Origin: Octopus vulgaris | Lineage: Eukaryota | Direction: 5' to 3' | Assembly: GCA_951406725.2 (NCBI GenBank) | Contig: OX597818.1 | Coordinates: 73,346,001 to 73,410,000 of the forward strand | Length of the DNA: 64,000 nucleotides | Shown here: positions 1,630 through 62,815 of the stretch, piece by piece | How the letters are laid out: each line of letters starts with the position of its first letter | Position numbering within the stretch: the stretch's first letter is position 1 | Notes under the pieces: model-generated | What the model was told of the DNA's origin: nothing | What the model saw: the letters and a program-made list of their open reading frames with translations, nothing else | Databases searched by the model: none | Translations under genes and position numbers: made by a program

Positions 1630-1900
1630 ATTCAAATATGAACAAAGAGAAAACACAACAACGCGAGGACGTGGAACAAGTATAGTGTTAAGGAGGCTCA
1701 GGAAAGGAAAGAAAAAAGGATGATTTAACGTTTCGAGTGGAGCTCTTCGTCAGAAACATAGAAAAAGGAAAGGTCCAAGAAAGGGAAGGCGGAGAAAGAA
1801 AATCGCCAACGATAAACACGCGGTCCCATATTGAAATGAGGGGAATTGGTGAAGAAAAATTTCTTTCAAAGACAGGAGAGAGCAAGAGAAGGAGGTATGT
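1625..1900 (-). mobile_element. Short non-coding Penelope-type/retrozyme-like element next to (TA)n
   Basis: Contains the minimal HHR at 1723-1757. A truncated sibling (TATAGT.TTA..GGA.GCTCAGGAAAG) lies at ~25353-25400. Confidence 0.55.
1723..1757 (-). ncRNA. Minimal type I hammerhead ribozyme
   Basis: Minus strand: GTTT-CTGACGA-A-GAG-ctcca-CTC-GAAAC-GTT-AAAT. Helix I GTTT/AAAT, helix II GAG/CTC, palindromic AACGTT helix III, GUU site. Confidence 0.65.
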
Positions 1901-2882: not shown

Positions 2883-4091
2883 CAGGTCATGGATAAAATA
2901 ATTTAATACACCTAGCATCATAGCATCATAATTTTGAAATATCTATAAAACCGTCAAAAGCATGTTTATTTTTATTCTTTTTGATTTATTATTAGTGTTG
3001 CTAAATATTTTGCTAAAATTGCTGCTTCGTTTCAGATATCATCAAAAACATGTAATTAAAATTCATTAAAGCGACAGATCTATCGAAGTTCCAAAGTTGT
3101 AAAATTGTTGTTGCTTGGATGGCAGACGCTAGCGTAAGGAAAACAGCCAAAATGTTTGGGGTATCAAGAAGTACTGTCTCGAAAGTTATGACACCTTTTA
3201 AGAAAGAGGGAAAAACCTCTTGTCGAAAAGGAAGGAAACCAAAACTTTCAGATAGGCTTAATGAACACCTCGAAAACCAAGATTCCACAAAACTGTCCGC
3301 CGGAAGCTGTACAAAGCCGGATTTCACAAGAGGGCTGCAATCAGAAAATCACTATTTTCAGAAACAAAGCGGCGCAGCGTTTTGATTGGATTGGAACCCT
3401 TGAGAATTGGTCCCCAGAGCAGTGGAAGAACATTATTTTGCGGGCGAGTCATCCCTTACCTTATCTCCGACCACCGGCCAAGTATGTATGTGGAGACAGC
3501 CAAAAGAAGCATTTGACCCAGACTGCCTTCCTCCAACTGTTAAACATGGAGGAGGATCTGTGATTATTTGGGTTTGGGCTATATCTTGGAAATGCGCAAG
3601 CTCAATATTTTCCCTTCATGGTAGAATTAACAGTCAAGACTATTTAAACATTTTAACTGTTCAAATTCCTTCTATGGCTGCGGAATTGTTACCAGAAGGA
3701 AGCGCAAAAATAATCTTTCAGGATAATAATGCACTAATTTACCCAGATAAATTGTTACTGAATGGCACGAGGAACATTCTAGTGTAGTTGAACATCTTTT
3801 CTGGCCACCACAACCCCCAGATCTCAAAATTATTGAACATTTATGGTGCATTTTAGAAAAACAAGTAAGGTGTCGATATCCTCCAGCATCATCACTATAA
3901 GAACTGGAGCCTTTTAGCGGAATAATGGAAAAAAATTTGTTGGAGACAATTCAAACTTTGTACGAGTCCATGCCTTGTAGAGTTCAAGCTGTAATTACTG
4001 CCAAAGGCGGTCCTACCTTATATTAAAATAATTTGTTTGAAATTTGAATACTGAAATTTTAAGCTGTTTCCATTACTTTGTCCAAGTCCTG
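2883..4091 (+). mobile_element. Full-length but decayed Tc1 (DD34E-type) transposon
   Basis: Degenerate TIRs CAGGTCATGGATAAAATAAT / ATTACTTTGTCCAAGTCCTG-TA between (TA)n tracts. Paired-like HTH (ASVRKTAKMFGVSRSTVSKV...GRKPKLS), PTVKHGGGSVIIW, IFQDNNA and WPPQPPDLKIIEHLW motifs; several frameshifts. Confidence 0.9.
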
Positions 4092-5399: not shown

Positions 5400-7676
5400 G
5401 TCCATTTAACTTATGTTCTTCCTATATATATATTGGATGAGTTGGTCAATAAACCCACTGACGTTGATCTCTGTTATTGATAATATACCTGAAATACCAA
5501 CAAAACATCTTTTAGTAGAGGTTTCAAACCTGGCTATAATAAAAGCGGCGATCGGGAAATTGAAAAATAGAAAGACTTCTGGTGTGGATGGATTATGTGC
5601 AAAGATATGCACATATGGTGGTGAACATCACTTCAATACTCTATAAATCGAAAGGTGAAAAGGATGTCTGTGATAACTTTCGCGTTATCTCTCTGTTAGC
5701 TGTCGCTGGAAGAGTTCATTGTAGGGTAATGGTGGATAGATTGCTCCTGCACATTGCCCATCAATTTCTACGTGAATCACAAATGGGTAGTAGGAGTTCT
5801 ATGGATTTTTTCAGCTGGACAGTTACAAGAGAACTATTTCGAACAGGATATGGACTTATATAAGATTTTTATTGATCTGACGAAAGCGTTTGGTTCTGGA
5901 AATAGTTACACTTTGGGAGATCCAGAAAAAAAGCCAGGATGTCCTTAAAATTTATGAGAATGCTTAGAAAATTTCATGACAAGATCCAAAGCTATCTTCC
6001 TGCTCCTACATTGTTTGCTCTGCATTTTACAATAGTCATCAAAAAAGCTTTCCAAAATTGCGCAGAAGGTGTCTATATAAAATATAGGACAGCGGGAAAA
6101 CTTTTGAACCTCCAAAGATTTAGTGTCAAAACAAAAGTTCTTCATTCTCACATCATTGAGTTTTTGTATGCATTTAATTGTGACCTGCGATTTCAGCATC
6201 GTGTAGAGCATTGGACCTTACTGTCAACTTGAAAAAAAAAAAAAACAGTTCTAATGTACGATCGTGCCTCCTCTAAACTTTATGTGGAACCTTCTATAAA
6301 TGTGAATGATCAAATGTTAGAAGTTGTTACCAAATTCATTTATTTTGGAAGTACTTTGAGCACTGCTGGTCTGGATGATGAAATTTCATATAGAATCAGC
6401 AAAGCTAGTAGTGCCTTTGATATGCTTAACAGGCGTCTCTAGCCATAGTATATCTTCCCAAATTAAAGTTAGGATTTATAACACACGTATCCTGCCATCT
6501 TTGCTAGGTTGTTTATCGTTGGCAGTTAAAGCATTTGAAACGATATCATAAATATTTTCTCATTCTTTTATTTGTTTCAGTCATTTGACACTAGGACTTA
6601 TTCTTTGTAAGATTAGTACTTATTCTATCTGTCTCTTTTGCCGAACCGCTTAGTTACGGGCACGTAAACACGCCAGCATCGGTTGTCAAGCGATGTTGGC
6701 GGGACACAGACACACAAACATATAGACACACATACATATATATATACATATATATGATGGGCTTCTTCCATTTTCCGTCAACCAGATCCACTCACAAGGC
6801 TTTGGTCGACCCGAGGAGATAGTAGAAGACACTTGCCCAAGGTGTCACACAGCAGGACTGAACCCGGAACAAGCTACTGACCACACAGCCACTCCGTAGG
6901 AAAATTCTTGGGATAAATTGGAAAATGGTCATCAGTGATTTGGAGGTACTTGAGAGAAGTGGTAGTAGAAAAGTAGAATCAATGATTCTGCAAAGTCGTT
7001 TGAGATGGGGTGGACATCTGATAAGAATGAATGATGAAAGTCTTCCCAAGCGACTTTTGTATGATGAGATAGAAGATGGTAGGTGGCAAGCACATAAACC
7101 CAAAATGAGTTATGAGAACTGACTCAGAATGGCTCTGACACAGACAGGAATTTTTGGAGAGGGGTACACAAGACCGCCGAAATGGCTGGAGGAGGAGAGT
7201 GCACAGTGAATGTTCGAGGTTTGAAAGAGAGATAATGAAGCACAAGAAGATTAGGAGAAGGCTTAGAAGGAATGAAACTGTGGAGTTTTGGCTTTTGGGT
7301 GCGTGGTTTGTGTGTGTTGGGGGGGGGGAGGTGCTTGAGTCGTGCGGGCCTGGGTAGCCATCAGACAACTCACAGGATTCGAACCATGGTAAATTGTGAT
7401 ATGGCTATTGTTCAGAACAGAACATGTGCAACATGTGGAAAGACGTGGCTCTCAGTTGGAAGACTGAAAAAGCATGTCAAAAGAGTTCATACAGTAGCGC
7501 CTGTTCTCTCTGCCAGCCAGAACATCATCACAGTTGTATATTATGTAATAGAATGTGCAACACTTACACCGAGCTCAAGAGTCATAGAGGGGGGGGTCAC
7601 ATTTCATCAACAATGATTCATTTCAGTGATTCTTTCTAGCAATGGCCTTGCTCGTATACGAGAAAGCAGCTAAAGA

Positions 7677-7680: not shown

Positions 7681-7717
<37 letters not shown>

Positions 7718-7822
7718 CATATATCGGACAAACCATGCCAGACCACCAGTACCAGCGAATCCAAAAATACAAATGAGATCTAGTATTCTCCTAGTATTTT
7801 CAAATCCAAATCAGAATAAATC

Positions 7823-7886
7823 TCTGAGCTGATGAAGGAAATGTTGGCGTTTAGTCAACTAATCCAGAAACAGGCTTGTCCTCGGG
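7823..7886 (+). ncRNA. Type I hammerhead ribozyme, copy 1
   Basis: TCTGAG-CTGATGA-A-GGA.GTTGGC-gttta-GTCAAC.TCC-A-GAAAC-AGGCTT-GTC-CTCGGG. Helix I TCTGAG/CTCGGG; quasi-palindromic ACAGGCTTGT helix III; predicted cleavage after 7880. Confidence 0.75.
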
Positions 7887-8383
7887 TGATCTCAAATGGA
7901 TGTGATCTTTCGTTGATTTTTCCTTTATACCTATGTGAGTTATTTCTGAGTATGCATTGTCTGGGAGTCTTTTCTTGCAGTAGAAGAAATAGCCAAATTT
8001 TTGGCTGCTATTTCTAAAAGCTCGGTATGTGGTAAAGTAAATTATTTTACTTTACCCTATTTTTATAAAGTAATATTTCAAATATACCGTAAAAGGTCGT
8101 TTTACATACCGAACACTGCTCGGTCAAATTAATTAATAATTAAATAATTTTACCCTTTTTTATTGACAATTTAATAATTTCTCCCCAAAAATGTTAACTA
8201 CAGTTTTGCCTCGTAGGAATGCACTACTCTGTAACTCACGTGGGTGGACAGGGAGAATACTAGATCTCATTTGTATTTTTGGATTCGCTGGTACTGGTGG
8301 TCTGGCATGGTTTGTCCGGTGTTACTCATATCGGACGGGTATGTTTGATTTTTAGTACTTTCAAATCAAAATCAGAAGAAATC

Positions 8384-8447
8384 TCTGAGCTGATGAAGGA
8401 AATGTTGGCGTTTAGTCAACTAATCCAGAAACAGGCTTGTCCTCGGG
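8384..8447 (+). ncRNA. Type I hammerhead ribozyme, copy 2
   Basis: Identical to copy 1 and 561 nt downstream; predicted cleavage after 8441. Confidence 0.75.
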
Positions 8448-8631
8448 TGATCTCAAATGGATGTGATCTTTCGTTGATTTTTCCCTTATACCTATGTGAG
8501 TTATTTCTGAGTATGCATTGTCTGAGAGACTTTTCTTGCAGTAGAAGAAATAGCCAAATTTTTGGCTGCTATTTCTAAAAAGCTCGGTATCTGGTAAAGT
8601 AGATTATTTTACTTTACCCTATTTTTATAAA

Positions 8632-8677
<46 letters not shown>

Positions 8678-8680
<3 letters not shown>

Positions 8681-9272
8681 ATTAATCAATATAGGGTAGC
8701 AAAAAATTCAGCAGAAATTATTTTGCTACCAGCGGTCTAGTGAGAAAAAGGAAATAGTCAGGGACTATTTATAAATTCAACATCAAATTAAGGAACGGCC
8801 ATAATAGGCCGTTCAACCCACTAGAAATAACAGCCAAAGCTTCAACCGCAAAATAGTAGTAATTCCGTAAATCAGGAGAAAATTAAAAAACATTTAAACT
8901 TTCCACTTTATACAATGCATCGTTTCATCGTTTTTTAATGGTAAATCAGCCTGATTAAATTAAATCAAGCTAATCTTCCATACGCCAACAGATTCATCAG
9001 TAAAGTAAGCCAGGAGGGAGAGATATTTACACGAGGCAGCACCACTACCGCTTCGGCAATATCTAACCTAAAATTTTCAAAATCATCGTACTCGCGCCAA
9101 TTTATCGGCAGCAAATATAAGCTGACGATTCCAATTCGGAATTAAACAGATCTAGTATTCTCCCTGTCCACCCACGTGAGTTACAGAATAGTGCATTCCT
9201 ACAGAGGCAAAACTGTAGTTAACATTTTTGGGGAGAAATTATTAAATTGTCAATAAAAAAGGGTAAAATTAT
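8678..9272 (-). mobile_element. Second HHR-bearing non-coding element, tail-to-tail with the R-U-R unit
   Basis: 9148-9272 is the reverse complement of 8144-8267. It carries a different HHR (8905-9006) and is bounded by TA-rich tracts. Confidence 0.65.
8905..9006 (-). ncRNA. Type I hammerhead ribozyme with long helix II
   Basis: Minus strand: ACTTTA-CTGATGA-ATC...GATTAGCTTGATT-taattt-AATCAGGCTGATT...GAT-GAAAC-GATGCATT-GTA-TAAAGT. Helix I is 6 bp, helix III is the palindrome ACGATGCATTGT, GUA site. Confidence 0.75.
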
Positions 9273-9693
9273 ATATATGTAATAGACAATTTAACATAAT
9301 AGTCATTACATATAATTCCTTTATTATACAAAAATTGGCTTCCCACTTTTTTCCAGTTGTCATTAGTAATAGGTTTTCTCAATTCGTCTATTGAACTGAG
9401 GTGAACTGAAAGACCTAAGAAACAATAAACAGAGCACTTGAAGAATGGCTATTGTATGGGGAAACCGGGGGAAGTTTGAGATGTTTAAGTTGAAAAGGTA
9501 AAGGCAGGTACGATGGACTGGTAGCAATTGAAGGAGCGGTACTTAGTAGAAGTAGCAGTAGTAATATGAGTAGTAGAAATAGTAGTAGGTGTAATAGTAG
9601 GAGTATTAGGGACAGTAATGTACATAGGTCGGCAACATTACCATATTGGCATTAACCCATAATCTCTCACTGTTTGTTGTCTCTCTCTCACTC

Positions 9694-11559: not shown

Positions 11560-11610
<51 letters not shown>

Positions 11611-11612
<2 letters not shown>

Positions 11613-12023
11613 TTTATTCTTCTACTCTTTTACTTGTTTCAGTCATTTGACTGCGGCCATGCTGGGGTACCGCATTTAGTCGAGCAAATCGACCCCAGGA
11701 CTCATTCTTTGTAAGCCTAGTACCTATTCTCTCAATGTCTATTGCTGAACCGTTAAGTTACGGGGACGTAAACACGCCAGCATCGGCTGTCAAGCGATTT
11801 TGGGGGACAAAGACAGAGACACAAACATGTGCACACACATACATACATATACATATTTACAACGGGATTCTTTCAGTTTCCTCCTACCAAATCCACTCAC
11901 AAGGAATTGGTCTTCACGAGACTGTAGTAGAGGAGATTTGCACAAGTTGCCAAGCAGTACGACTGAACCTGAAACCATGTGGTTGATAAGTAAGCTTCTT
12001 ACCATACAGCCACACCTGCGCCT
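11611..12023 (-). mobile_element. SINE family A, full length
   Basis: Head AGGCGCAGGTGTGGCTGTATGGTAAG (A box), GGTTTCAGGTTCAGTC (B-box-like), central microsatellite and a GAAACAAGTAAAAGAG tail; lies between (TA)n tracts. Confidence 0.9.
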
Positions 12024-14405: not shown

Positions 14406-14602
14406 AGAGAGAGAGAGAGAGTGTGTGTGTGTGTGTGTGTATGCGCGTTTACGTGATCGTGTGTTTGTGTGCCAAAGGAAGTTATTTCATGGCATTCTTT
14501 CGTTTGAAGTAGGAAAGGTGTCAACACTATCATATGGTCGAGCATATTGGATCATATATCTGTTCGTTAATTTCCCTAAGAACTTTTGAGTTTTTATACT
14601 TT

Positions 14603-15746
14603 GAAGAGAACAGAAATTAAAAGAGAGGAGAAAGTGAAACGGAGACATTTGCTTTGAAGTGAGAGCAGAAAGTGAAAGAGAGGAGAAAATGAAAGATATA
14701 TGTACGTGTATGAAATGGGCGTGTGTATGTGTGTAACAGCGAGTGAATGAAAGTGTGTGTTGTCATTTGTGTATTTTTCGCATGTATGAGTAAGTGGCAC
14801 TCAATCGATCTCCCCCTCACACGCACACTCATTATCTTTCGTATACACGTACATAAATACATATACATACATCTTTTTTATGCATGTGAGAGAGAAAGTG
14901 AGTGAGTGTATTTCCTCATAATACATAGAGAAATAGATGTCATTTAAGGTACACACACATATAGAAAATGTGACGTCATCATCGTCGTGGTATAAAATGT
15001 CGTTTAGGATAGTTGAATTATAGAAAGATTATAACGCTAAATTTTTGTAATGCAAATATGTAAATGAAAATAAAGTTTATTTGTTAGCCAAAAGATTACT
15101 GAAACTGTTGATGCCCTATACGTCAAAATCGGCAACTCTTTTTTCGAATGTATTCATTATTTACTGTACGTTTATAAATCTTTTTTTGCTATGAAGAGAG
15201 CAGAAATGGAAAGAGAAGAGAAAGTGAAACTGCGACATTTGCTTTAAAGTTGGAGCAGGAAGTGAAAGAGAGGAGAAAGTGAAAGATATATGTATGCATG
15301 TATATGTGTGTGAGAGAGAGAAAGAGAGAGTGAGTGAATAAGTGAAGATGTGTGTTGTGATGTATGTGTAAGTGAAACTCACTCGGCCTCACTCTCTCTG
15401 TATCACACGCATATTTCATATACACATACATATATACATATGTATACACCTTTTTGTATATATGTGCGCGTGTGCGTGTGCATGTGAGAGAGAGAGATAG
15501 AGTGACTGCATTTCTTCATAACAGAGAAATGAATGTCTTTTAAGTTACACACTCATAGAGAAAATATAATGTCGGCGTCGTTGTAGTCGTGGTATAAAAT
15601 GCTTACGATAATTGACTTATAGAAAAGATTATAATGTAAAATATAACGCAAATATCTAAATAAAAATAAAGTTTATTTGGTAGTCGTAAGGTTACTGAAT
15701 TTTCTGATACCCCATACGTCAAAATCGGGAACTCAGTTTTCGAATG
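14603..15746. repeat. Diverged tandem duplication, unit ~590 bp
   Basis: 14603-15150 and 15193-15746 share GAAGAGA.CAGAAAT..., GAAAGTGAAAC, GTCGTGGTATAAAATG, AATAAAGTTTATTTG and ATACGTCAAAATCGG...TTTTCGAATG. Confidence 0.85.
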
Positions 15747-16965: not shown

Positions 16966-17040
16966 GTACATTTAAACACATTTTTCTATACGCTAGGCCA
17001 CTGGTAGTAAACATTTCTAAAATCGTTATTACCCTGATAT

Positions 17041-17119
<79 letters not shown>

Positions 17120-22599: not shown

Positions 22600-23482
22600 A
22601 AGTCGCTGTTTCCACTCATGGTCCTCAGGTTGACGAGAACCACACTCTACATGATCTGACAAAATCCATGTGCGAGATACTTCAATGACAATACTGCTCT
22701 GTCTTCAGTAATCCTAGTGCGGTTGATCTGGCTAGTATTAGTGATGACAAACCCTCAACTAACCATATCTAACATAACGTTTGGTGCTCCTGCTACCCTA
22801 AGAGAAATATATAAGATCAATCACAACGCGGCAGGAGGACCCGATGAGTTCCCGGCCACTCTCCTGAAGATGTGTCGACATCAAATTGCAACCCCACTAG
22901 CTGAACTCTGGAGAAACTCACTTGATGTAGGCTACATTCCTGATAATTTTCGTTTCCAGTCCGTCCTTCCAGTTTTCAATAAGGGAAACAAATCTCTTCC
23001 AGTGTACTACCGTCCGATTTCACTTACTTCTCATATCATTAACATTTTTGAGAGGGTGGTAATATCGTGAATAACTCACTTCTTCGAAGTCAACAATCTG
23101 CTGAACCCCAGCCAGTATGGTTTCCGTGATGGCAGGGACTACCTGTCGCAGCTTGTGATGACATTTTGATGACATCTTAAAAGCGTTGGGAGAAGGCTTC
23201 AACATTGACGTCATATACTTCGATTTCAGCAAGGCATTTGACAGAGTGGACCACAAAATCCTGCTGAAGAAACTGTCCGACATTGGAGTCCTTGGAAAGC
23301 TGCTGCAGTGGATAAAGTGTTTCCTCACGAACAGAACCCAACATGATGAGTTTGAGGGAATAGGATCCAGCTCAGTGAAAGTTAGTAGTGGTGTCTCAGA
23401 AGGTACTGTGTTGGGCCCATTCCTCTTCATTATTTACAGAAACGACATAGATGTCATCAAATATTCTACACTGAAAATCTTG
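22600..23482 (+). mobile_element. CR1/L2-type LINE reverse transcriptase fragment
   Basis: AGGPDEFPATLLK, PVFNKGNKS...YRPISLTS, QYGFRDGR, VIYFDFSKAFDRVDH, SGVSEGTVLGPFLFIIY; truncated just before the FADD motif. Confidence 0.9.
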
Positions 23483-23557
23483 TTCTATATTTAAGAGATG
23501 AGGAATTATGTACTTTATTTACAATTGATGAATAATTGTCCTAATCTTTTTGTTGTT

Positions 23558-38714: not shown

Positions 38715-39120
38715 TTGCATGTAAGTGTGGCTGTGCGGTAAGAAATTTGGTTTTCAATATATGACTCCGGGTTCAGACGCGTTGCGTTGCACCTTGGGCA
38801 AATGTTTCTACTATAGCCTCATGTCGACCAAAGCCTTGAGAGTGGATTTGGCAAAAGCAAACTAAAAGATACCTGCCATATATGTGTACATGTGTGTATG
38901 TGTCCTTGTGTCTGTGTTTGTCACCCACCACTGTTTGACAGCCGGTGTTTGTGTTGTGTTTATCTCCTAGTAACTCAGCGCGTAGGCAAAAAATCATGAT
39001 ACCATAAGTATTAGGCTTTAAAAATATTAAGTACTGGCATTGATTCATTCAACAACATATTCTTCAAGATGGTTCCCCCGCACGGCTGCAGTCTCGCGTC
39101 TAAAACAAATGGATAAGAAG
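38715..39120 (+). mobile_element. SINE family A
   Basis: GTGTGGCTGTGCGGTAAG, CCGGGTTCAG, GCACCTTGGGCAAATG, CGACCAAAGCCTTGAGAGTGGATTTGG. Confidence 0.85.
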
Positions 39121-46681: not shown

Positions 46682-47021
46682 GTACGCATACATACAAACA
46701 TACATACATACACACACACATACATGCATACATACATACATACATACACACATACATACATACATACATACATACATACACACATAGATGCACTTATAAT
46801 ACGTTTATGGAGGGAAAGACGGAGAGATAGATATTAACCATCAAATATGTTTATACACAAACTGGATTTTAAAATAACACATTATTTGCAGTATATACAC
46901 CACATCATTTCATTCAGATATAGTTGCTTGAATGATTTCTTTATTAAGTTTTTTTTTTGTTTTGCTCAAGAACGTCTCGCATCGCCCGGTGCAGAAATCG
47001 AAGCACAATCTTGCGATCATA

Positions 47022-48312
47022 CGAGGGACGTTCAATAAGTAATGTCCCTGACCCACGTGCAGTTGTTTGATCTAGCTCAAATTTTGCATGTGTAATTATC
47101 TATATCTCTATAGATTAAGTGGCAAATTACAGCTCTGAACTAATTGTGGTTTCTGATTTATAGGTGTTTGAACTGAGTCAAGTGTGAAATGGAGCCTGTT
47201 GAGTGTCGAGCAGTGATCCGGTTTTTGTATTTGAAAGGATGCACACCACGGGAGACTTTTGATGAAAAGAAAGTAACTTATGGTGATAATGCCCCATCAT
47301 ATGACCTTGTAAAACGCAGACATCGTGAATTCAAACATGGTCGGAACTCTGTGGAAACATCTCCCAGATCTGGTCGCCCCCCTTCTGCCATTGATGAGGC
47401 ATCTGTCCGTCAAGTTGAGGCTGCCATTTTGGAAGATCGACGCATAACTATTCGCCAAATAGCCCATGAGGTCAAGATTAGTACCGGGTCTGTGGAAACT
47501 ATCATTAATGACCATTTGCATATGCAAAAGGTGTCTGCCAGATGGATTCCCAGGTTGCTCACACCTTTCCAGAAGCAAGAACGCGTCGAGTGCTCGAGGA
47601 TGAATTTGGAGATGTGTCAAGAAGATGAGTCAAACTTTTTCAAAAGTCTGATTGCACAGGATGAAACCTGGGTCCATCACTATGATCCAGAGACCAAAGC
47701 CCAGTCAATGCAGTGGAAGCACTGTGACTCACCTCCTCCAAAGAAGGCAAGGGTGCAGCCCTCCGCTGGCAAGGTCATGCTCACAGTCTTCTGGGACCAG
47801 GACGGAGTAGTGATGACAGATTTCCTAGCAAAGGGTACCACAATTCCAGGAGCCTATTATGCTTCACTTTTGAGGAAATTCAGAGAAGCTATCAAAATCA
47901 AGAGGCGGGGCAAGATCAGCAAAGGCATCCTCCTCCTGCAGGACAACGCTCCGGTCCACAACTCGCGTGTCGCCAGATCAGAAGCACAGGCGTGCAGCTA
48001 TGATCTCCTCCCCCATGCCCCTACTCTCCTGACCTTGCACCCTCTGATTTTCACCTCTTCCAGCCATGAAGTTGTTTTTGAAAGGAAAGCGTTTCCCAGA
48101 TGATGCAACCTTGATTTCTGAAGTGACGTCGTGGTTGGAGGACCAAGCTGGGGTCTTCTACAAAAAGGGTCTCCATAGCTGCATCAAACGATGGGAGAAA
48201 TGCGTAACTCTGGGTAGTTCCTATGTAGAAAAAGACTAATAACTGTGCCAAGTTTCGTTGCTCTACTGCTATGGGAAGTGGGTCAAGGGCATTACTTATT
48301 GAACGCCCCTCG
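47022..48312 (+). mobile_element. Full-length mariner transposon, 1291 bp
   Basis: 35 bp TIRs CGAGGG(A/G)CGTTCAATAAGTAATG.CC.TGACCCAC with 3 mismatches; TA duplication at 47020-47021 and 48313-48314. Confidence 0.97.
47189..48239 (+). pseudogene. Mariner DD34D transposase, 350 aa after repairing two single-C deletions (~48020, ~48060)
   Basis: PRSGRP, WIPRLL, DETWVHHYDP, QDNAPVH-(34)-YSPDLAPSD; C-terminus RWEKCVTLGSSYVEKD*. Confidence 0.92.
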
Positions 48313-49590
48313 TAAGTCCGCCTCCTTAACTACTAAGCCACGCGAAAATTGACATTCAGATATAGTTGCTAGAATGTTTCTCGCTTTATTCTCTAGCTTT
48401 ATTTCATATTTAACAGACAGAATATGAAGCAAAACAACAGTGGTATTTTAGCTGAAACTATAAAACAGCCGATATAGAAATTGCCGTTTATTCTCAAATG
48501 AGTAGCTGAAAATATTAAATTTGCTGGTCAACATTTTACTCACGACAGACGCGCCGTTTTCTTCTGGTTCCCAAACGAAAATTATTCTACTGAAAATCGT
48601 ATCTGTTTATTTGAACATGTAAGTAGTAATCGAGGTTGGTTTAGGGAATGTGACGCTCACTGTTTTAACTTTTATTTTATTACTTGGAAATTTAATTTCA
48701 CTGAAGTGGTGCACAATCGATAAAATGGCCGATCTTGTAATTATGCTTAGTTAGAATCCATTTCGACAATCTGAACTGAAATTGCATTTGTTGTTAAAGA
48801 GAGTGATGTCTTGTTATATACAAACCGTCTGAATTATAACTGATATTGTCGTTTGGAAGCGGTAGTCAAAATTTATGTCTTTATTGTTAGAGTTGAACAT
48901 ATAATTCCAGTTACTGGTAGAAAGGAGTAATTTTTATTCAGGTTGAGTCCCTGTTCAACAAGGGTGTTATATAATATGACAGATCCATTAAGAGAGTGAC
49001 TTACGGTCAAACATTCTGTAAGAGCATCTAACACTAATTATTTTCCGTGACAGAAGATCTCAGAGAAGCAAATATAGACAAACGTTATTTAACAAGTCAC
49101 CGTTCGAACAGTCTAAAGAAAATTATGTTGAGAAAGATAATACCCTTTTTGACAAAATACAGGAACTGTTTTAGAAGTTGGACATATTTACGAAAATACT
49201 AGACCAATGATCTGAATTAAATATGATTGTGAGTGTGCACGAGCGTGTGTGTGTGTGTGGGGGGGGAATTTATATATTTAATCAATAACGGAATATTTGC
49301 TTATAGGAAGAAACTCAAAACTGTCAATAGAAATTTATTTGTTTGGTAAAATTCGAGTTGACTTCAAATTTAATCTCGTCTCAAAGAGTGCGCAACGACT
49401 TTGATGGAATGAGCCGTTAGGGAAATATTTCAATTACCCATCATATATGCTATAATACAATATTGCATCATATATATAAAATAATACTATATCATATACA
49501 CATATAATACATATATATATATATATATATCCATGCCATGTATGTATGTATGTATGTATGTATGTATGTATGTATATATATATATATATG

Positions 49591-50284: not shown

Positions 50285-50319
<35 letters not shown>

Positions 50320-50344
50320 ATGGATGGATGGATGTATATATGTA

Positions 50345-50550
50345 TATGTTTGCATGTCTGTGTACCCTCCATCGCTTGACAACCGATGTTGGTGTGTTTA
50401 CCACCCCGTAACTTAGCAGTTCAGCAAAAAGCGACCAATAGATTAAGTAGTAGAGTTATAAAGAAGGAATTCTGGGAGCGATTTGTTCGACTAAAAGCAG
50501 TGCCCCTGCATGGCCGCAGTCAAATGACTGAAGCAAATAAAGGAATAAAA
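50345..50550 (+). mobile_element. SINE family A, 3' half
   Basis: CATCGCTTGACAACCGATGTTGGTGTGTTTAC..CCCGTAACTTAGC...GCATGGCCGCAGTCAAATGACTGAA. Confidence 0.85.
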
Positions 50551-52039
50551 CAGTGAAAGAAAATATGTGTGTGTGTATGTGTATGTGTGTCTGTGTGTGC
50601 GTGTGTGTATAAAATGCCATTATATACACTCTTCTGTGTACATAATTTGGACGCCTACATTTCATTCAATAGTTTGAACGCGCTTTTTATAATCGAAAAT
50701 CTGTGAGATTTTACATATCTTGCTCACAATTTACATATTTATTACATGTATATTAGATATTCTTTCACGTATTTCATCCTCGAATTTATATGGTTTTGTG
50801 GCTGCTGAATGATAAGTTTTTTTATTATTCATATAATATCCTGGGTATATCTATTGTTTGTATATTTGTGTATTGAGGAATCTCAGCATGAGAAACCGTG
50901 TCTTTATGCATGAAATTGCTGTGATGCATATTTTTAATTTTCAGGGAAAAAATTCTGTCCTGAATGGAGTGGACTATGACACCTGTTTCAAATATCGGAG
51001 AGTAAAAATATTGCATATGCATGCAGGGAAGACAGCCTTCGGTTTGATGATATTTAGCATTGGAGTAGCTTTGGACTAGACGTAGCATCCGAATAACGAC
51101 AATTTGAAATATTAAAATGTCAATAGGCTGCAATTAATGTAATTAACAAAAGTTTGTATGGTAACAAGTGAAACATTACATACATACCTGCTCGATCGAA
51201 AGGTGATTTTGAGGGAGTTAGCATAAGATGTATTGGAATGGTGTCTTATAAATGTGTGAAAAAATACACATTTTTCATGAAATTGGGTGGAGATTGTGGT
51301 TTATTGGTTTGTTTATGTTTTTTGGAATTAACTTTAAAAAATAGTAACAATTATCTATAACAAATATCTTTTCAATATTAAGGAAATAAATATCTTTCAT
51401 TTAAAAAATTGATGTTCGTTTGATCATTTTTGTATAGGCATCTTGGATACATGCCATATTTCCTGGTATTGAACATAGTGGCAATAGAATGGCTTCAGAA
51501 TTATCCGTCGCACTACACACGGGCATGCTAGCGTCTGGACGTGCTTATCATAACTCTGACCAGTCAGCAGCTGAAAACACAGAAATACAATTACAACATA
51601 GCTGTACAACTCAAGCCGCCGTTCAAATCACTTTAAAAACTTAAAAGACCTAAATATCTCATATTTTCGGTAGTACATAAATATATGTATAATGTGCACG
51701 TTTCAATTAAAGTATATAATTCTAAACTAATTTTCTTTTACATGGATTGTTATAGTTATTAATACTATTTTTATATGAGCAGAATGTAAACACAAAATAA
51801 ACTCACTTTATTTTTCACAAGAAAATTAATATAGGATTTCGCTGCCGCTGGAAAACTTTGTTCCTACCAATAAAATTTGAAACTTATAACACATATGACA
51901 GTAAATTCAGTTATCTTCAAGTTACTAAATGTTGGTTTAAATATTATTTAATCTGGTGAAAGGGATATAATATTATGTAATATCCTATAACCTATAATAA
52001 TTTCTCATGTGTACATAAGACCTGGCATTTTCGACGGTC

Positions 52040-59320: not shown

Positions 59321-59364
<44 letters not shown>

Positions 59365-59371
<7 letters not shown>

Positions 59372-59935
59372 CAATTGAGGATAAAATCTTTAAAAGAAAT
59401 TATCAGTAGTCAGCGTGAAAAACCTCGTAAGAGAAAAAATTCGTAAATTGTTCCCCTTTGAAAATATTCATTTATATTATATTGAGGGTACTACTATTCG
59501 TTAATACCAACACGCTAAGAGGGACCAATGCGGTCAAAACTACTAAAATAAACAAAAACAAAATTTAACCGAATGCAAAACTTCAAAACACATCATTTTA
59601 AAAAAGAATTCAGTTACATATCACATGTGATTTCGCATTTTCATGCAGAATATGCATTTCATGTTCGTCAGTGCAACAAACTCAAGAAATATAAGAAAAA
59701 ACATAACATTACAAACTCGATAGCCAACCGTAGAATTCGTCGTAGCATGTACGAATGTTTATCCTTACATATCTATGAAAATGGCGGGCTTTTTCGCAAT
59801 GCATTTCGGTACCAAATTGTCTAGTCGGAATAAAAATTCAGTATTGAACTATTCCGGTGAAAAATATATTTTTAGTAGTTTTGACCGCATTGGTCCCTCT
59901 TAGCGTGTTGGTATTAACGAATAGTAGTACCCTCA

Positions 59936-59945
<10 letters not shown>
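59365..59945 (-). mobile_element. Foldback non-coding element carrying an intact HHR
   Basis: ~78 bp inverted repeats at 59473-59550 and 59866-59945; embedded between long (TA)n tracts. Confidence 0.7.
59613..59677 (-). ncRNA. Type I hammerhead ribozyme
   Basis: Minus strand: GTTGCA-CTGACGA-A-CAT..ATGCA-tattc-TGCAT..ATG-C-GAAA-TCACATGTGA-TA-TGTAAC. Helix I is 6 bp, helix III is the perfect palindrome ATCACATGTGAT, AUA site. Confidence 0.8.
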
Positions 59946-60002
<57 letters not shown>

Positions 60003-62519: not shown

Positions 62520-62565
<46 letters not shown>

Positions 62566-62603
62566 GAATGGAGTTGAACGACGATTTAACAAAATTCCTT
62601 TAT

Positions 62604-62684
62604 TCTCGACATATGTATCGAAGACTGCATATTTCTAATTTCGAAGGAATAAGGGGTGCATTATGCCGCCTTCTCATCAGGAAA
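62604..62684 (-). ncRNA. Hammerhead ribozyme with GAAA->GATA substitution
   Basis: Minus strand: TTTC-CTGATGA-GAAGGC.GCATA...TATGC.GTCTTC-GATAC-ATAT-GTC-GAGA; palindromic ACATATGT helix III. Confidence 0.6.
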
Positions 62685-62815
62685 GACAAGGAACTTAAGT
62701 CAGCATCATGTCAGCATCATGATGAACAAAAACTTTCTTTATTTCTCTCTCTCCTCTCTCTCATTCTCTCTCTCTCTCTCTCCTCTCTCACTCTCTTTGT
62801 ATATATGTATATATG

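What the first reader, a model, noticed from the sequence alone, without database searches (positions are those of the whole stretch)
59365..59945. Foldback element enclosing the best-formed hammerhead in the window
Seen: ~78 bp near-perfect inverted repeats surround an HHR with a 6 bp helix I, a two-part helix II, a 12 nt perfect palindrome as helix III and an AUA site. A further ~105 bp terminal segment precedes the left arm, and the whole element lies in (TA)n. Inference: a young Penelope-type insertion with an inverted terminus. Helix III is long enough that a monomer might cleave, making it the best experimental candidate.
Basis: partly seen in the sequence, partly recalled or inferred. 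Interest (0 to 1): 0.7.

Follow-up and report, generated by a model that had tools for sequence, protein, structure and literature searches.

The report
Penelope-type insertion with extended dimer hammerhead
A 577-base piece of DNA lying in a TA repeat, likely left by a Penelope-type jumping gene, has a perfect 76-base inverted end, a hammerhead RNA motif predicted to cut mainly as a pair, and a small predicted hairpin at each of its two possible ends that likely marks where copying starts.

Summary
Observation confirmed, with corrections. The arms are 76/76 identical (59473-59548, 59870-59945), a 104-bp segment extends the left end, and (TA)n flanks both sides. The minus-strand type I hammerhead is beyond chance (0 of 300 shuffles). 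It lacks G10.1-C11.1 (A·C instead) and has no Rfam hit.

A sequence-unrelated hammerhead in the window (7829/8390) has the same build: 6+6-bp helix I with bulged U1.7, a 3-bp stem plus internal loop in helix II, and a long palindromic helix III. All 9 core-adjacent pairs differ yet still pair.

The geometry matches described Penelope-like (PLE) insertions, closest to the Hydra clade. No ORF remains, so clade membership is untested. Folding does not favour monomer cleavage (active fold about 0.1%; dimer 10.7 kcal/mol better), and the 8390 sibling folds better, so this is not the best candidate.

This is a candidate signal for two reverse-transcription start sites. Verdict: new variant of a known kind.

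The parts
59324..59368 (.). (TA)n target array, left side (element 3' side)
59369..59472 (-). 104-bp 3' extension ('tail') present at one end only
   Evidence: no other copy in the window
59380..59404 (-). predicted stem-loop at the tail end; first four pairs GAUA/UAUC, a one-pair compensated version of the short-end hairpin, followed by CU and about 10 A/U-rich nt
   Evidence: z -2.3 against shuffles, 9 of 200 as stable
59473..59548 (-). 3'-terminal segment up to the internal ('short') end; left arm of the inverted repeat
   Evidence: 76/76 identity with 59870-59945
59487..59508 (-). predicted terminal stem-loop (7 bp, first four pairs GGUA/UACC) whose 3' arm carries the hexamer UACCCU, 12 nt before the short end
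   Evidence: folding z alone only -1.5, so support is comparative
59606..59683 (-). type I hammerhead motif: helix I 6 bp + bulged U1.7 (59612) + 6 bp; core 59671-59665; predicted cut between 59619 and 59618 (AUA)
59620..59631 (-). helix III, 12-nt perfect palindrome (4 bp + tetraloop as monomer, 12 bp between two copies)
59635..59664 (-). helix II domain: A10.1·C11.1 mismatch, 3 bp, 3x4 A-rich internal loop, 5 bp, 5-nt loop
   Evidence: same shape at 8397-8427; 0 of 3000 shuffles for each, 0 of 5000 random window 30/31-mers
59684..59869 (-). 5' body, about 190 nt, no detectable coding remnant (3' UTR-like)
59860..59873 (.). 14-nt A/T palindrome at the junction of body and inverted copy
   Evidence: chance of one within 10 nt of a given point about 0.006
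59870..59945 (+). inverted, 5'-truncated 76-bp copy of the short 3' end (right arm), with its own copy of the hairpin at 59910-59931
59941..59999 (.). (TA)n target array, right side (overlaps the last 5 nt of the arm)

Best explanation
This is likely a recent, non-coding insertion of a (TA)n-targeting Penelope-like retroelement (Hydra-like), whose minus-strand RNA carries a hammerhead predicted to cut after A59619 mainly as a dimer. SHOWN in the sequence: the parts, their orientation, the junction palindrome, and the hammerhead build shared with an unrelated family in the window. PREDICTED by folding: the terminal hairpins and the preference for a dimer. INFERRED mechanism: a PLE protein supplied in trans nicks both strands of a (TA)n array. 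One nick primes copying at the outer hairpin (end 59369) and copies about 500 nt through the hammerhead. The other nick primes at the inner hairpin (end 59473, where the RNA itself reads like TA repeat) and copies only 76 nt in the opposite direction. The two cDNAs join at an A/T microhomology and leave the 14-nt palindrome. The 104-bp tail is the distance between the two start signals. In tandem transcripts two hammerheads would pair through helix III; bulged U1.7 and the last A of the helix II internal loop would give the usual helix I-helix II contact. This solo copy has no partner in cis and is likely a poor cutter by itself.
For: Geometry: an inverted 5'-truncated copy plus a tail at one end is the described PLE layout (PMC8557442 passages). 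Palindromes at the inverted junction are described (PMC3846280). A PLE protein cuts and extends both strands and starts at two RNA sites that bound the tail (PMC11167929). Hydra clade: (TA)n targets, 9-10-nt near-palindromic helix III, a 10.1/11.1 mismatch in 15 of 26 rows by my count, and one family with an inverted 5' copy (supplement table). Hammerhead: 0 of 300 shuffles. Sibling 7829/8390 aligns with one gap; 6 of 6 helix I pairs and 3 of 3 proximal helix II pairs differ yet pair, and U1.7 and the distal helix I are kept, while the elements show no significant overall similarity. U1.7 with the last A of loop II is a described rate-enhancing contact (PMC11875169 passages). Dimer: the unconstrained two-strand fold forms intermolecular helices I and III, 11.4 kcal/mol below two monomers; ensemble dG -10.7. 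Terminal signal: the arm's hexamer recurs at 3 of the 87 other (TA)n flanks, 0.19 expected, P about 0.001. 4 of 4 TA-adjacent exact hexamers close a 7-11-bp stem against 1 of 13 elsewhere after dropping 2 duplicate copies (P 0.002; 0.007 without this element). Two of the three other ends (8632, 8676) belong to elements with long-palindrome hammerheads in the same orientation.
Against: No RT or GIY-YIG sequence in this copy, and no second copy in the window, so family, boundaries and autonomy are unverified. The tail is 104 bp; published tails are 30-40 bp. In the one PLE studied in vitro the start site is not homologous to the target, whereas here the inner end is TA-like. G10.1-C11.1 is absent, and even in the dimer the lowest-energy fold misplaces helix II (comparative fold 2.8 kcal/mol higher). 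The hammerhead and the short-end hairpin are not unusually stable alone (z -1.3 and -1.5). The hairpin pattern was noticed after looking at the flanks, rests on 4 ends, is absent at a one-mismatch end (62881), and one end that has it (17043) has no hammerhead found by the scan. A target-site duplication cannot be read inside (TA)n.
Confidence: 0.7

Rival explanations
1. Same element, but the inverted arm arose by self-priming: the growing cDNA folded back at the junction palindrome, switched onto its own A/T-rich stretch and copied 76 nt until it met the (TA)n target. No second RNA start site is needed.
For: The 14-nt palindrome sits at the junction, and self-priming is the published reading of such palindromes. 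The template and the junction share an A/T microhomology with a one-base slip. The arm ends where the template is TA-like.
Against: It does not explain why the arm stops 12 nt past the hexamer, the offset seen at the true end of the unrelated element at 8632, or why direct-orientation ends of other elements carry the same hairpin.
Confidence: 0.15
2. The 473-bp foldback (59473-59945) is a miniature inverted-repeat DNA transposon with 76-bp terminal repeats and a TA target, which captured a hammerhead fragment and landed beside an unrelated 104-bp piece.
For: Perfect arms, TA at both outer edges and no ORF. TA arrays are dense (44 in 64 kb), so two arrays 100 bp apart are not rare. Tc1/mariner remnants exist in the window.
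Against: The arm carries the hexamer and hairpin found at single, non-inverted ends of hammerhead-bearing elements. The 104-bp piece ends in a compensated copy of that hairpin. Hammerhead orientation and the one-sided junction palindrome fit the PLE layout.
Confidence: 0.07
3. The hammerhead cleaves efficiently as a monomer because tertiary contacts (U1.7 with the internal loop of helix II) and the 12-bp helix I outweigh the predicted misfold. This is compatible with the PLE identity.
For: Helix III can form 4 bp. Natural type I motifs with 2-bp helix III cleave as monomers, one with a U·U base of helix II reaching 22% in an hour. AUA is a natural site (PMC1636495 abstract). Nearest-neighbour energies ignore tertiary contacts.
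Against: Active monomer fold P about 0.0003-0.001. Helix III is fully self-complementary in all three long-palindrome families. Animal PLE hammerheads cleave poorly and as dimers, or need protein. AUA was the slowest of four triplets tested.
Confidence: 0.25
4. The motif is a decayed, inactive hammerhead: G10.1 was lost and an internal duplication scrambled helix II.
For: No G10.1-C11.1; near-duplicated 10-11-nt units in helix II give several competing folds; no Rfam hit.
Against: An unrelated family shows the same A-led mismatch, stem lengths and loop sizes with full covariation. All core nucleotides are intact, and the perfect arms argue for little time to decay.
Confidence: 0.15
5. The inverted arm is an assembly or chimeric-read artefact.
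For: Perfect identity next to microsatellites.
Against: The arm ends at a motif-defined position and a 321-bp spacer separates the arms. Similar short inversions occur in the cluster at 7725-9275.
Confidence: 0.02

Closest known systems
Hydra-clade Penelope-like elements (Craig et al. 2021, PMC8557442; section 11, Introduction, supplement tables seen)
   Same: (TA)n target; hammerhead near the 3' end; about 4-bp near-palindromic helix III; frequent mismatch at 10.1/11.1; inverted 5' copy in one family. The sibling's 10-nt helix III equals that listed for Penelope-1A_NV (by eye).
   Different: No ORF here, so the protein motifs cannot be checked. The mismatch is A·C (table: U·U or U·C). Helix II has an internal loop and 30 nt (Hydra rows up to about 25, by eye), helix III 12 nt (up to 10). 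The 3' end does not resemble Hydra-1_Obim by eye.
Metazoan PLE minimal hammerheads (Cervera and de la Pena 2014, PMC4209133; parts 1-2 of text and of supplement seen)
   Same: Type I, palindromic helix III, dimer design, located in PLE terminal repeats, mostly solo copies.
   Different: None of the 56 aligned motifs shows a helix II with an internal loop as printed; most have G10.1-C11.1 after one inserted base, a shorter helix I and a helix III of 2-10 nt. The motif at 1753(-) in this window is of that minimal kind.
Penelope/Poseidon insertion structure (Arkhipova 2013, PMC3846280; Frangieh 2024, PMC11167929)
   Same: Head-to-head inverted copy, junction palindrome, optional tail between two start sites, initiation at a stem-loop.
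   Different: Tail 104 bp against 30-40 bp; no ORF start in the tail; inner end is target-like; hairpin is not AC-rich and appears twice.
Non-LTR retrozymes (PMC7229834 passages; bioRxiv 10.64898/2026.07.22.740005 parts 1-2 of 5)
   Same: Non-coding, type I hammerhead, PLE-related, similar size.
   Different: Defined by head-to-tail tandem units; this copy is solo with an inverted end.

Membership tests
Type I hammerhead ribozyme | Core CUGANGA, GAAA, A15.1-U16.1, NUH triplet | tested here: met
   AUA is a natural triplet
Type I hammerhead ribozyme | Helices I, II and III can form around the core | tested here: met
   constrained folds and covariation with 8390; not the monomer's lowest-energy fold
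Type I hammerhead ribozyme | G10.1-C11.1 (or another pair) closing helix II | tested here: not met
   A·C; natural mismatches at this position are described
Type I hammerhead ribozyme | Match to an Rfam hammerhead model | tested here: not met
Type I hammerhead ribozyme | Mg-dependent self-cleavage 3' of H17 | not testable with these tools
   needs in vitro assay
EN+ Penelope-like element | RT plus GIY-YIG ORF | tested here: not met
   no ORF or remnant in this copy; expected for a 5'-truncated or non-autonomous copy
EN+ Penelope-like element | Hammerhead near the 3' end on the sense strand | tested here: met
   146 and 250 nt from the two ends
EN+ Penelope-like element | Inverted 5'-truncated copy at the 5' end with junction palindrome | tested here: met
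EN+ Penelope-like element | 30-40-bp tail at one end | tested here: inconclusive
   a one-sided extension is present but is 104 bp
EN+ Penelope-like element | Direct pLTRs from a partial tandem | tested here: not met
   no direct repeat in this copy; present in the sibling cluster
EN+ Penelope-like element | Target-site duplication | tested here: inconclusive
   unreadable inside (TA)n
EN+ Penelope-like element | Dispersed multicopy family | not testable with these tools
   one copy in 64 kb; no eukaryotic DNA collection available
Hydra clade | RWK and DKT motifs, CxCX5C linker, endonuclease without CCHH | not testable with these tools
   no coding sequence in this copy
Hydra clade | (TA)n insertion and canonical-type hammerhead with short-loop helix III | tested here: met
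Non-LTR retrozyme | Head-to-tail tandem units each with a hammerhead | tested here: not met
   definition
MITE (Tc1/mariner type) | Terminal inverted repeats at both element ends with TA duplication (definition recalled) | tested here: inconclusive
   arms are perfect but the left arm lies 104 bp inside the TA-bounded unit

The most novel reading that the evidence does not exclude
A group of (TA)n-targeting Penelope-like elements in this genome uses a conserved 3' stem-loop (GGUA...UACC-CU, then 8-17 A/U-rich nt) as the signal that sets where reverse transcription starts; this element carries two such signals 107 nt apart, which produces its long tail and inverted end. The group also shares an extended hammerhead, in which an internal loop replaces loop II and a bulged U1.7 keeps the tertiary contact, giving a fast, dimer-gated ribozyme unlike the slow minimal PLE hammerheads. 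I found neither feature in the papers I could read.
Probability: 0.3. Interest if true: 0.65.

Novelty: new variant of a known kind. Interest (0 to 1): 0.45.

Why it matters
Hammerheads in Penelope-like elements, inverted 5' copies and tails are all published, so the element as such is ordinary. Two details could matter. First, how PLE reverse transcriptase picks its two start sites is unresolved; a short hairpin repeated at both ends of one element and at the ends of unrelated families gives a precise mutational test. Second, animal PLE hammerheads tested so far cut poorly, and their role is unclear; a naturally covarying build that keeps the U1.7 contact is a good place to look for efficient, dimer-controlled cleavage.

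Tried and rejected
Rfam: no hammerhead hit.

Second copy: none in the window. No similar DNA in 50,697 phage records or 72,556 plasmid records.

Decayed endonuclease C-terminus: one minus frame resembles the Neptune endonuclease end by eye, but the invariant E and N are not matched. Pfam found nothing at meaningful E in the 8 element frames among 22 proteins given. The word-index search with one 54-aa frame found no candidate. The full phmmer search with a 37-aa frame gave 1 hit, a tandem-repeat protein with no local alignment to the query. The third frame was tried only as a 34-aa stretch against Pfam, and no language-model search result was obtained for these frames. Rejected as unsupported.

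Introns: 2 donor-like and 3 acceptor-like sites against 2.2 and 1.05 expected. Rejected.

Alternative helix II folds with G-C closure need 9- or 18-nt insertions in the core; set aside in favour of the covarying fold.

A 7-mer shared by the two ends is weak alone (P 0.007-0.04); it is absorbed into the hairpin result. A second hexamer in the sibling (8151) has no stem, so a matching two-signal tail there is not supported.

Whole-element alignment to the sibling scored below shuffles. Naiad membership: Naiads lack canonical hammerheads, and the cephalopod Naiad ends seen in excerpts do not resemble this element by eye. PMC12602865 passages held nothing relevant.

Unchecked: copy number, empty site and expression (no eukaryotic DNA collection); viral and metagenome contigs (closed); prokaryotic genome contigs (scan not used). 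Lünse et al. on dimeric PLE hammerhead variants was not held (seen only as a citation) and may already show this build. Supplements of the 2026 bioRxiv preprint were not seen.

Full report
SETTING. The window is 30-40% GC, rich in microsatellites, with mariner, Tc1-like, reverse-transcriptase and C2H2 zinc-finger fragments. This points to repeat-rich animal DNA. A cephalopod origin is my recollection of such sequence and was not tested by any search.

1. OBSERVATION. The inverted repeat is 76 bp and perfect, 59473-59548 against 59870-59945. A 104-bp segment (59369-59472) extends the left side, and (TA)n arrays bound the unit. The minus strand holds a type I hammerhead: 6-bp helix I, core at 59671-59665, 30-nt helix II region, GAAA, 12-nt palindrome and AUA site. 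A descriptor asking for helix I >=6 bp and a palindrome >=8 nt hit 0 times in 300 shuffles of the window. Helix I continues for 6 more pairs after a bulged U at position 1.7. Position 10.1/11.1 is A·C. Rfam has no matching hammerhead model at any threshold tried (one search listed 150 of 278 rows).

2. THE HAMMERHEAD BUILD IS CONSERVED. A relaxed scan found four motifs: 7829(+), 8390(+), 59671(-) and a minimal one at 1753(-). A longer-spacer scan added 9000(-); its strict version hit 0 times in 200 shuffles, its loose version 38 times. The 7829/8390 pair aligns to ours with one gap. Segment by segment both have a 6-bp helix I, bulged U1.7, a distal helix (6 of 6 pairs here, 5 of 6 at 8390, 4 of 6 at 7829), A at 10.1 opposite C or A, a 3-bp stem, an A-rich internal loop whose 3' side ends in A, a 5-6-bp stem, a 5-nt loop and a 10-12-nt self-complementary helix III. 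All 9 core-adjacent pairs differ and still pair. The helix II shape arose in 0 of 3000 shuffles of each and 0 of 5000 random window stretches. The whole elements are not detectably similar. An unpaired U seven bases after the cut pairing with the last A of loop II is a described rate-enhancing contact (PMC11875169, passages); that it forms here is inference. The 9000 motif shares A10.1 and a 12-nt helix III but has a 67-nt helix II domain and G at 1.7.

3. MONOMER OR DIMER. As a monomer the lowest-energy fold pairs 59664-59660 with the palindrome. The active fold lies 4.3 kcal/mol above the ensemble with helix II free and 5.0 with the comparative helix II (P about 0.001 and 0.0003). Two copies fold unprompted into intermolecular helices I and III, 11.4 kcal/mol below two monomers, although helix II is misplaced in that lowest fold by 2.8 kcal/mol. 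For 8390 the monomer gap is 2.75 kcal/mol and the dimer's lowest fold is the active one. These energies omit tertiary contacts, and natural motifs with a 2-bp helix III do cut as monomers (PMC7229834, passages). Animal PLE hammerheads tested so far are slow, dimeric or protein-assisted (PMC4209133; PMC11167929; PMC6765202). The dimer is the better prediction; the monomer remains possible.

4. THE ELEMENT. Read on the hammerhead's strand the order is: (TA)n, inverted 76-bp copy, 14-nt palindrome, about 190 nt of body, hammerhead, 3' segment, 104-nt tail, (TA)n. An inverted truncated copy at the 5' end and a one-sided tail are standard for PLEs (PMC8557442, passages), and palindromes at the inverted junction are described (PMC3846280). 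A palindrome of 14 nt or more falls within 10 nt of a given point with probability about 0.006 here (19 in 64 kb). Hydra-clade PLEs target (TA)n, and their hammerheads have 9-10-nt helices III and a 10.1/11.1 mismatch in 15 of 26 table rows by my count. No coding remnant was found, so a 5'-truncated autonomous copy and a non-autonomous family cannot be told apart. Zero mismatches in 76 bp bound arm divergence at 3.9%; the sibling's direct repeats are 95.6% identical.

5. A TERMINAL STEM-LOOP. The hexamer 12 nt inside the arm end recurs at 3 of the other 87 (TA)n flanks (8632, 8676, 17043) where 0.19 is expected; the reversed motif occurs at 0 of 88. Of 19 exact hexamers in the window, the 4 beside TA arrays all close a 7-11-bp stem; of the other 15, two are duplicate copies of those ends (dropped) and 1 of 13 has a 5-bp stem (P 0.002, or 0.007 without this element). 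The tail end has a one-mismatch hexamer whose hairpin restores the changed pair (GAUA/UAUC for GGUA/UACC). Against this: the pattern was seen after inspecting flanks; only 2 of 6 one-mismatch sites beside TA arrays have a stem; the 17043 stem is not that region's lowest-energy fold; folding z-scores are modest (-1.5, -2.3).

6. MECHANISM (inferred). A PLE protein acting in trans nicks both strands of (TA)n. One strand primes at the outer hairpin and copies about 500 nt; the other primes at the inner hairpin, where the RNA is itself TA-like, and copies 76 nt; the cDNAs join at A/T microhomology (junction shown). This follows the in vitro finding that a Poseidon protein cuts and extends both strands and starts at two sites that bound the tail, but differs in tail length and in target likeness of the start site. 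Self-priming foldback gives the same product and is the main rival for this step. If this locus were transcribed through both arms, they would pair fully (probability 1.0).

7. NOVELTY. The class is known. None of the 56 motifs aligned in PMC4209133 (supplement parts 1-2 of 3) or the 26 Hydra rows shows the internal-loop helix II with a 12-nt palindrome as printed. Ten paper searches (listings) turned up no title or abstract start describing this build or the paired terminal hairpin. That is limited evidence: the library omits most subscription papers, Lünse et al. was not held, Repbase was not available, and I read 6 of 59 parts of the Craig supplement plus two searches. Papers seen: PMC8557442 (abstract, passages, sections 3 and 11, those supplement parts); PMC4209133 and PMC11167929 (parts 1-2 of 4); bioRxiv 10.64898/2026.07.22.740005 (parts 1-2 of 5); PMC3846280 (passages, Discussion); PMC6765202, PMC11875169, PMC3088659, PMC7229834, PMC12602865 (passages); PMC1636495 (abstract).

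8. VERDICT. A real, likely recent PLE-type insertion; new variant of a known kind; interest 0.45. The value lies in the covarying hammerhead build and the candidate start-site hairpin, both testable, more than in monomer cleavage.

Noticed in passing
window 7713-8632 (+): PLE-like cluster between two (TA)n arrays: direct repeats 7792-8086/8353-8648 at 95.6%, each with the sibling extended hammerhead (cores 7829, 8390), plus a perfect 67-bp inversion 7725-7791/8252-8318. Two hammerheads on one strand could pair in cis; likely the best experimental candidate in the window.
   Followed up: partly
window 8676-9150 (-): Third hammerhead-bearing element, tail to tail with the previous one across a (TA)n array: core at 9000, 8-bp helix I, 12-nt helix III, 67-nt helix II domain, 10-bp terminal hairpin near 8698.
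   Followed up: partly
window 8141-8267 and 9148-9275: 128-bp inverted repeat at 97.7%, part of the same nest.
   Followed up: no
window 1727-1753 (-): Minimal PLE-type hammerhead (inserted A, G-C closed helix II, 4-nt palindromic helix III) 102 nt from a (TA)n array.
   Followed up: partly
window 62562-62690 (-): Hammerhead-like core at 62680 with a 5-bp G-C closed helix II by eye and an irregular helix III, about 70 nt from a (TA)n array.
   Followed up: no
window 17000-17043 (+): (TA)n-adjacent end with the terminal hexamer and an 8-bp stem but no hammerhead found upstream.
   Followed up: partly
window 47020-48314: Mariner-type transposon: 308-aa transposase frame 47177-48103 (Pfam Transposase_1, E 3.5e-23) with 37-bp inverted ends at 92%.
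   Followed up: no
window 3056-3787 (+) and 22660-23494 (+): Broken Tc1-like transposase frames, and a broken LINE-like reverse transcriptase (RVT_1, E 7.7e-10 for 23162-23491).
   Followed up: no
window 7239-7613 (+): Open frame with one C2H2 zinc-finger match below the curated cut-off (E 0.00046), just upstream of the PLE cluster.
   Followed up: no
window 6587-6870, 11585-12015, 38725-39045, 50305-50584: Dispersed family of about 280 bp at 69-79% identity, several copies beside microsatellites; SINE-like.
   Followed up: no
window 14591-15150 and 15181-15746: Old tandem duplication of about 570 bp at 73% identity.
   Followed up: no
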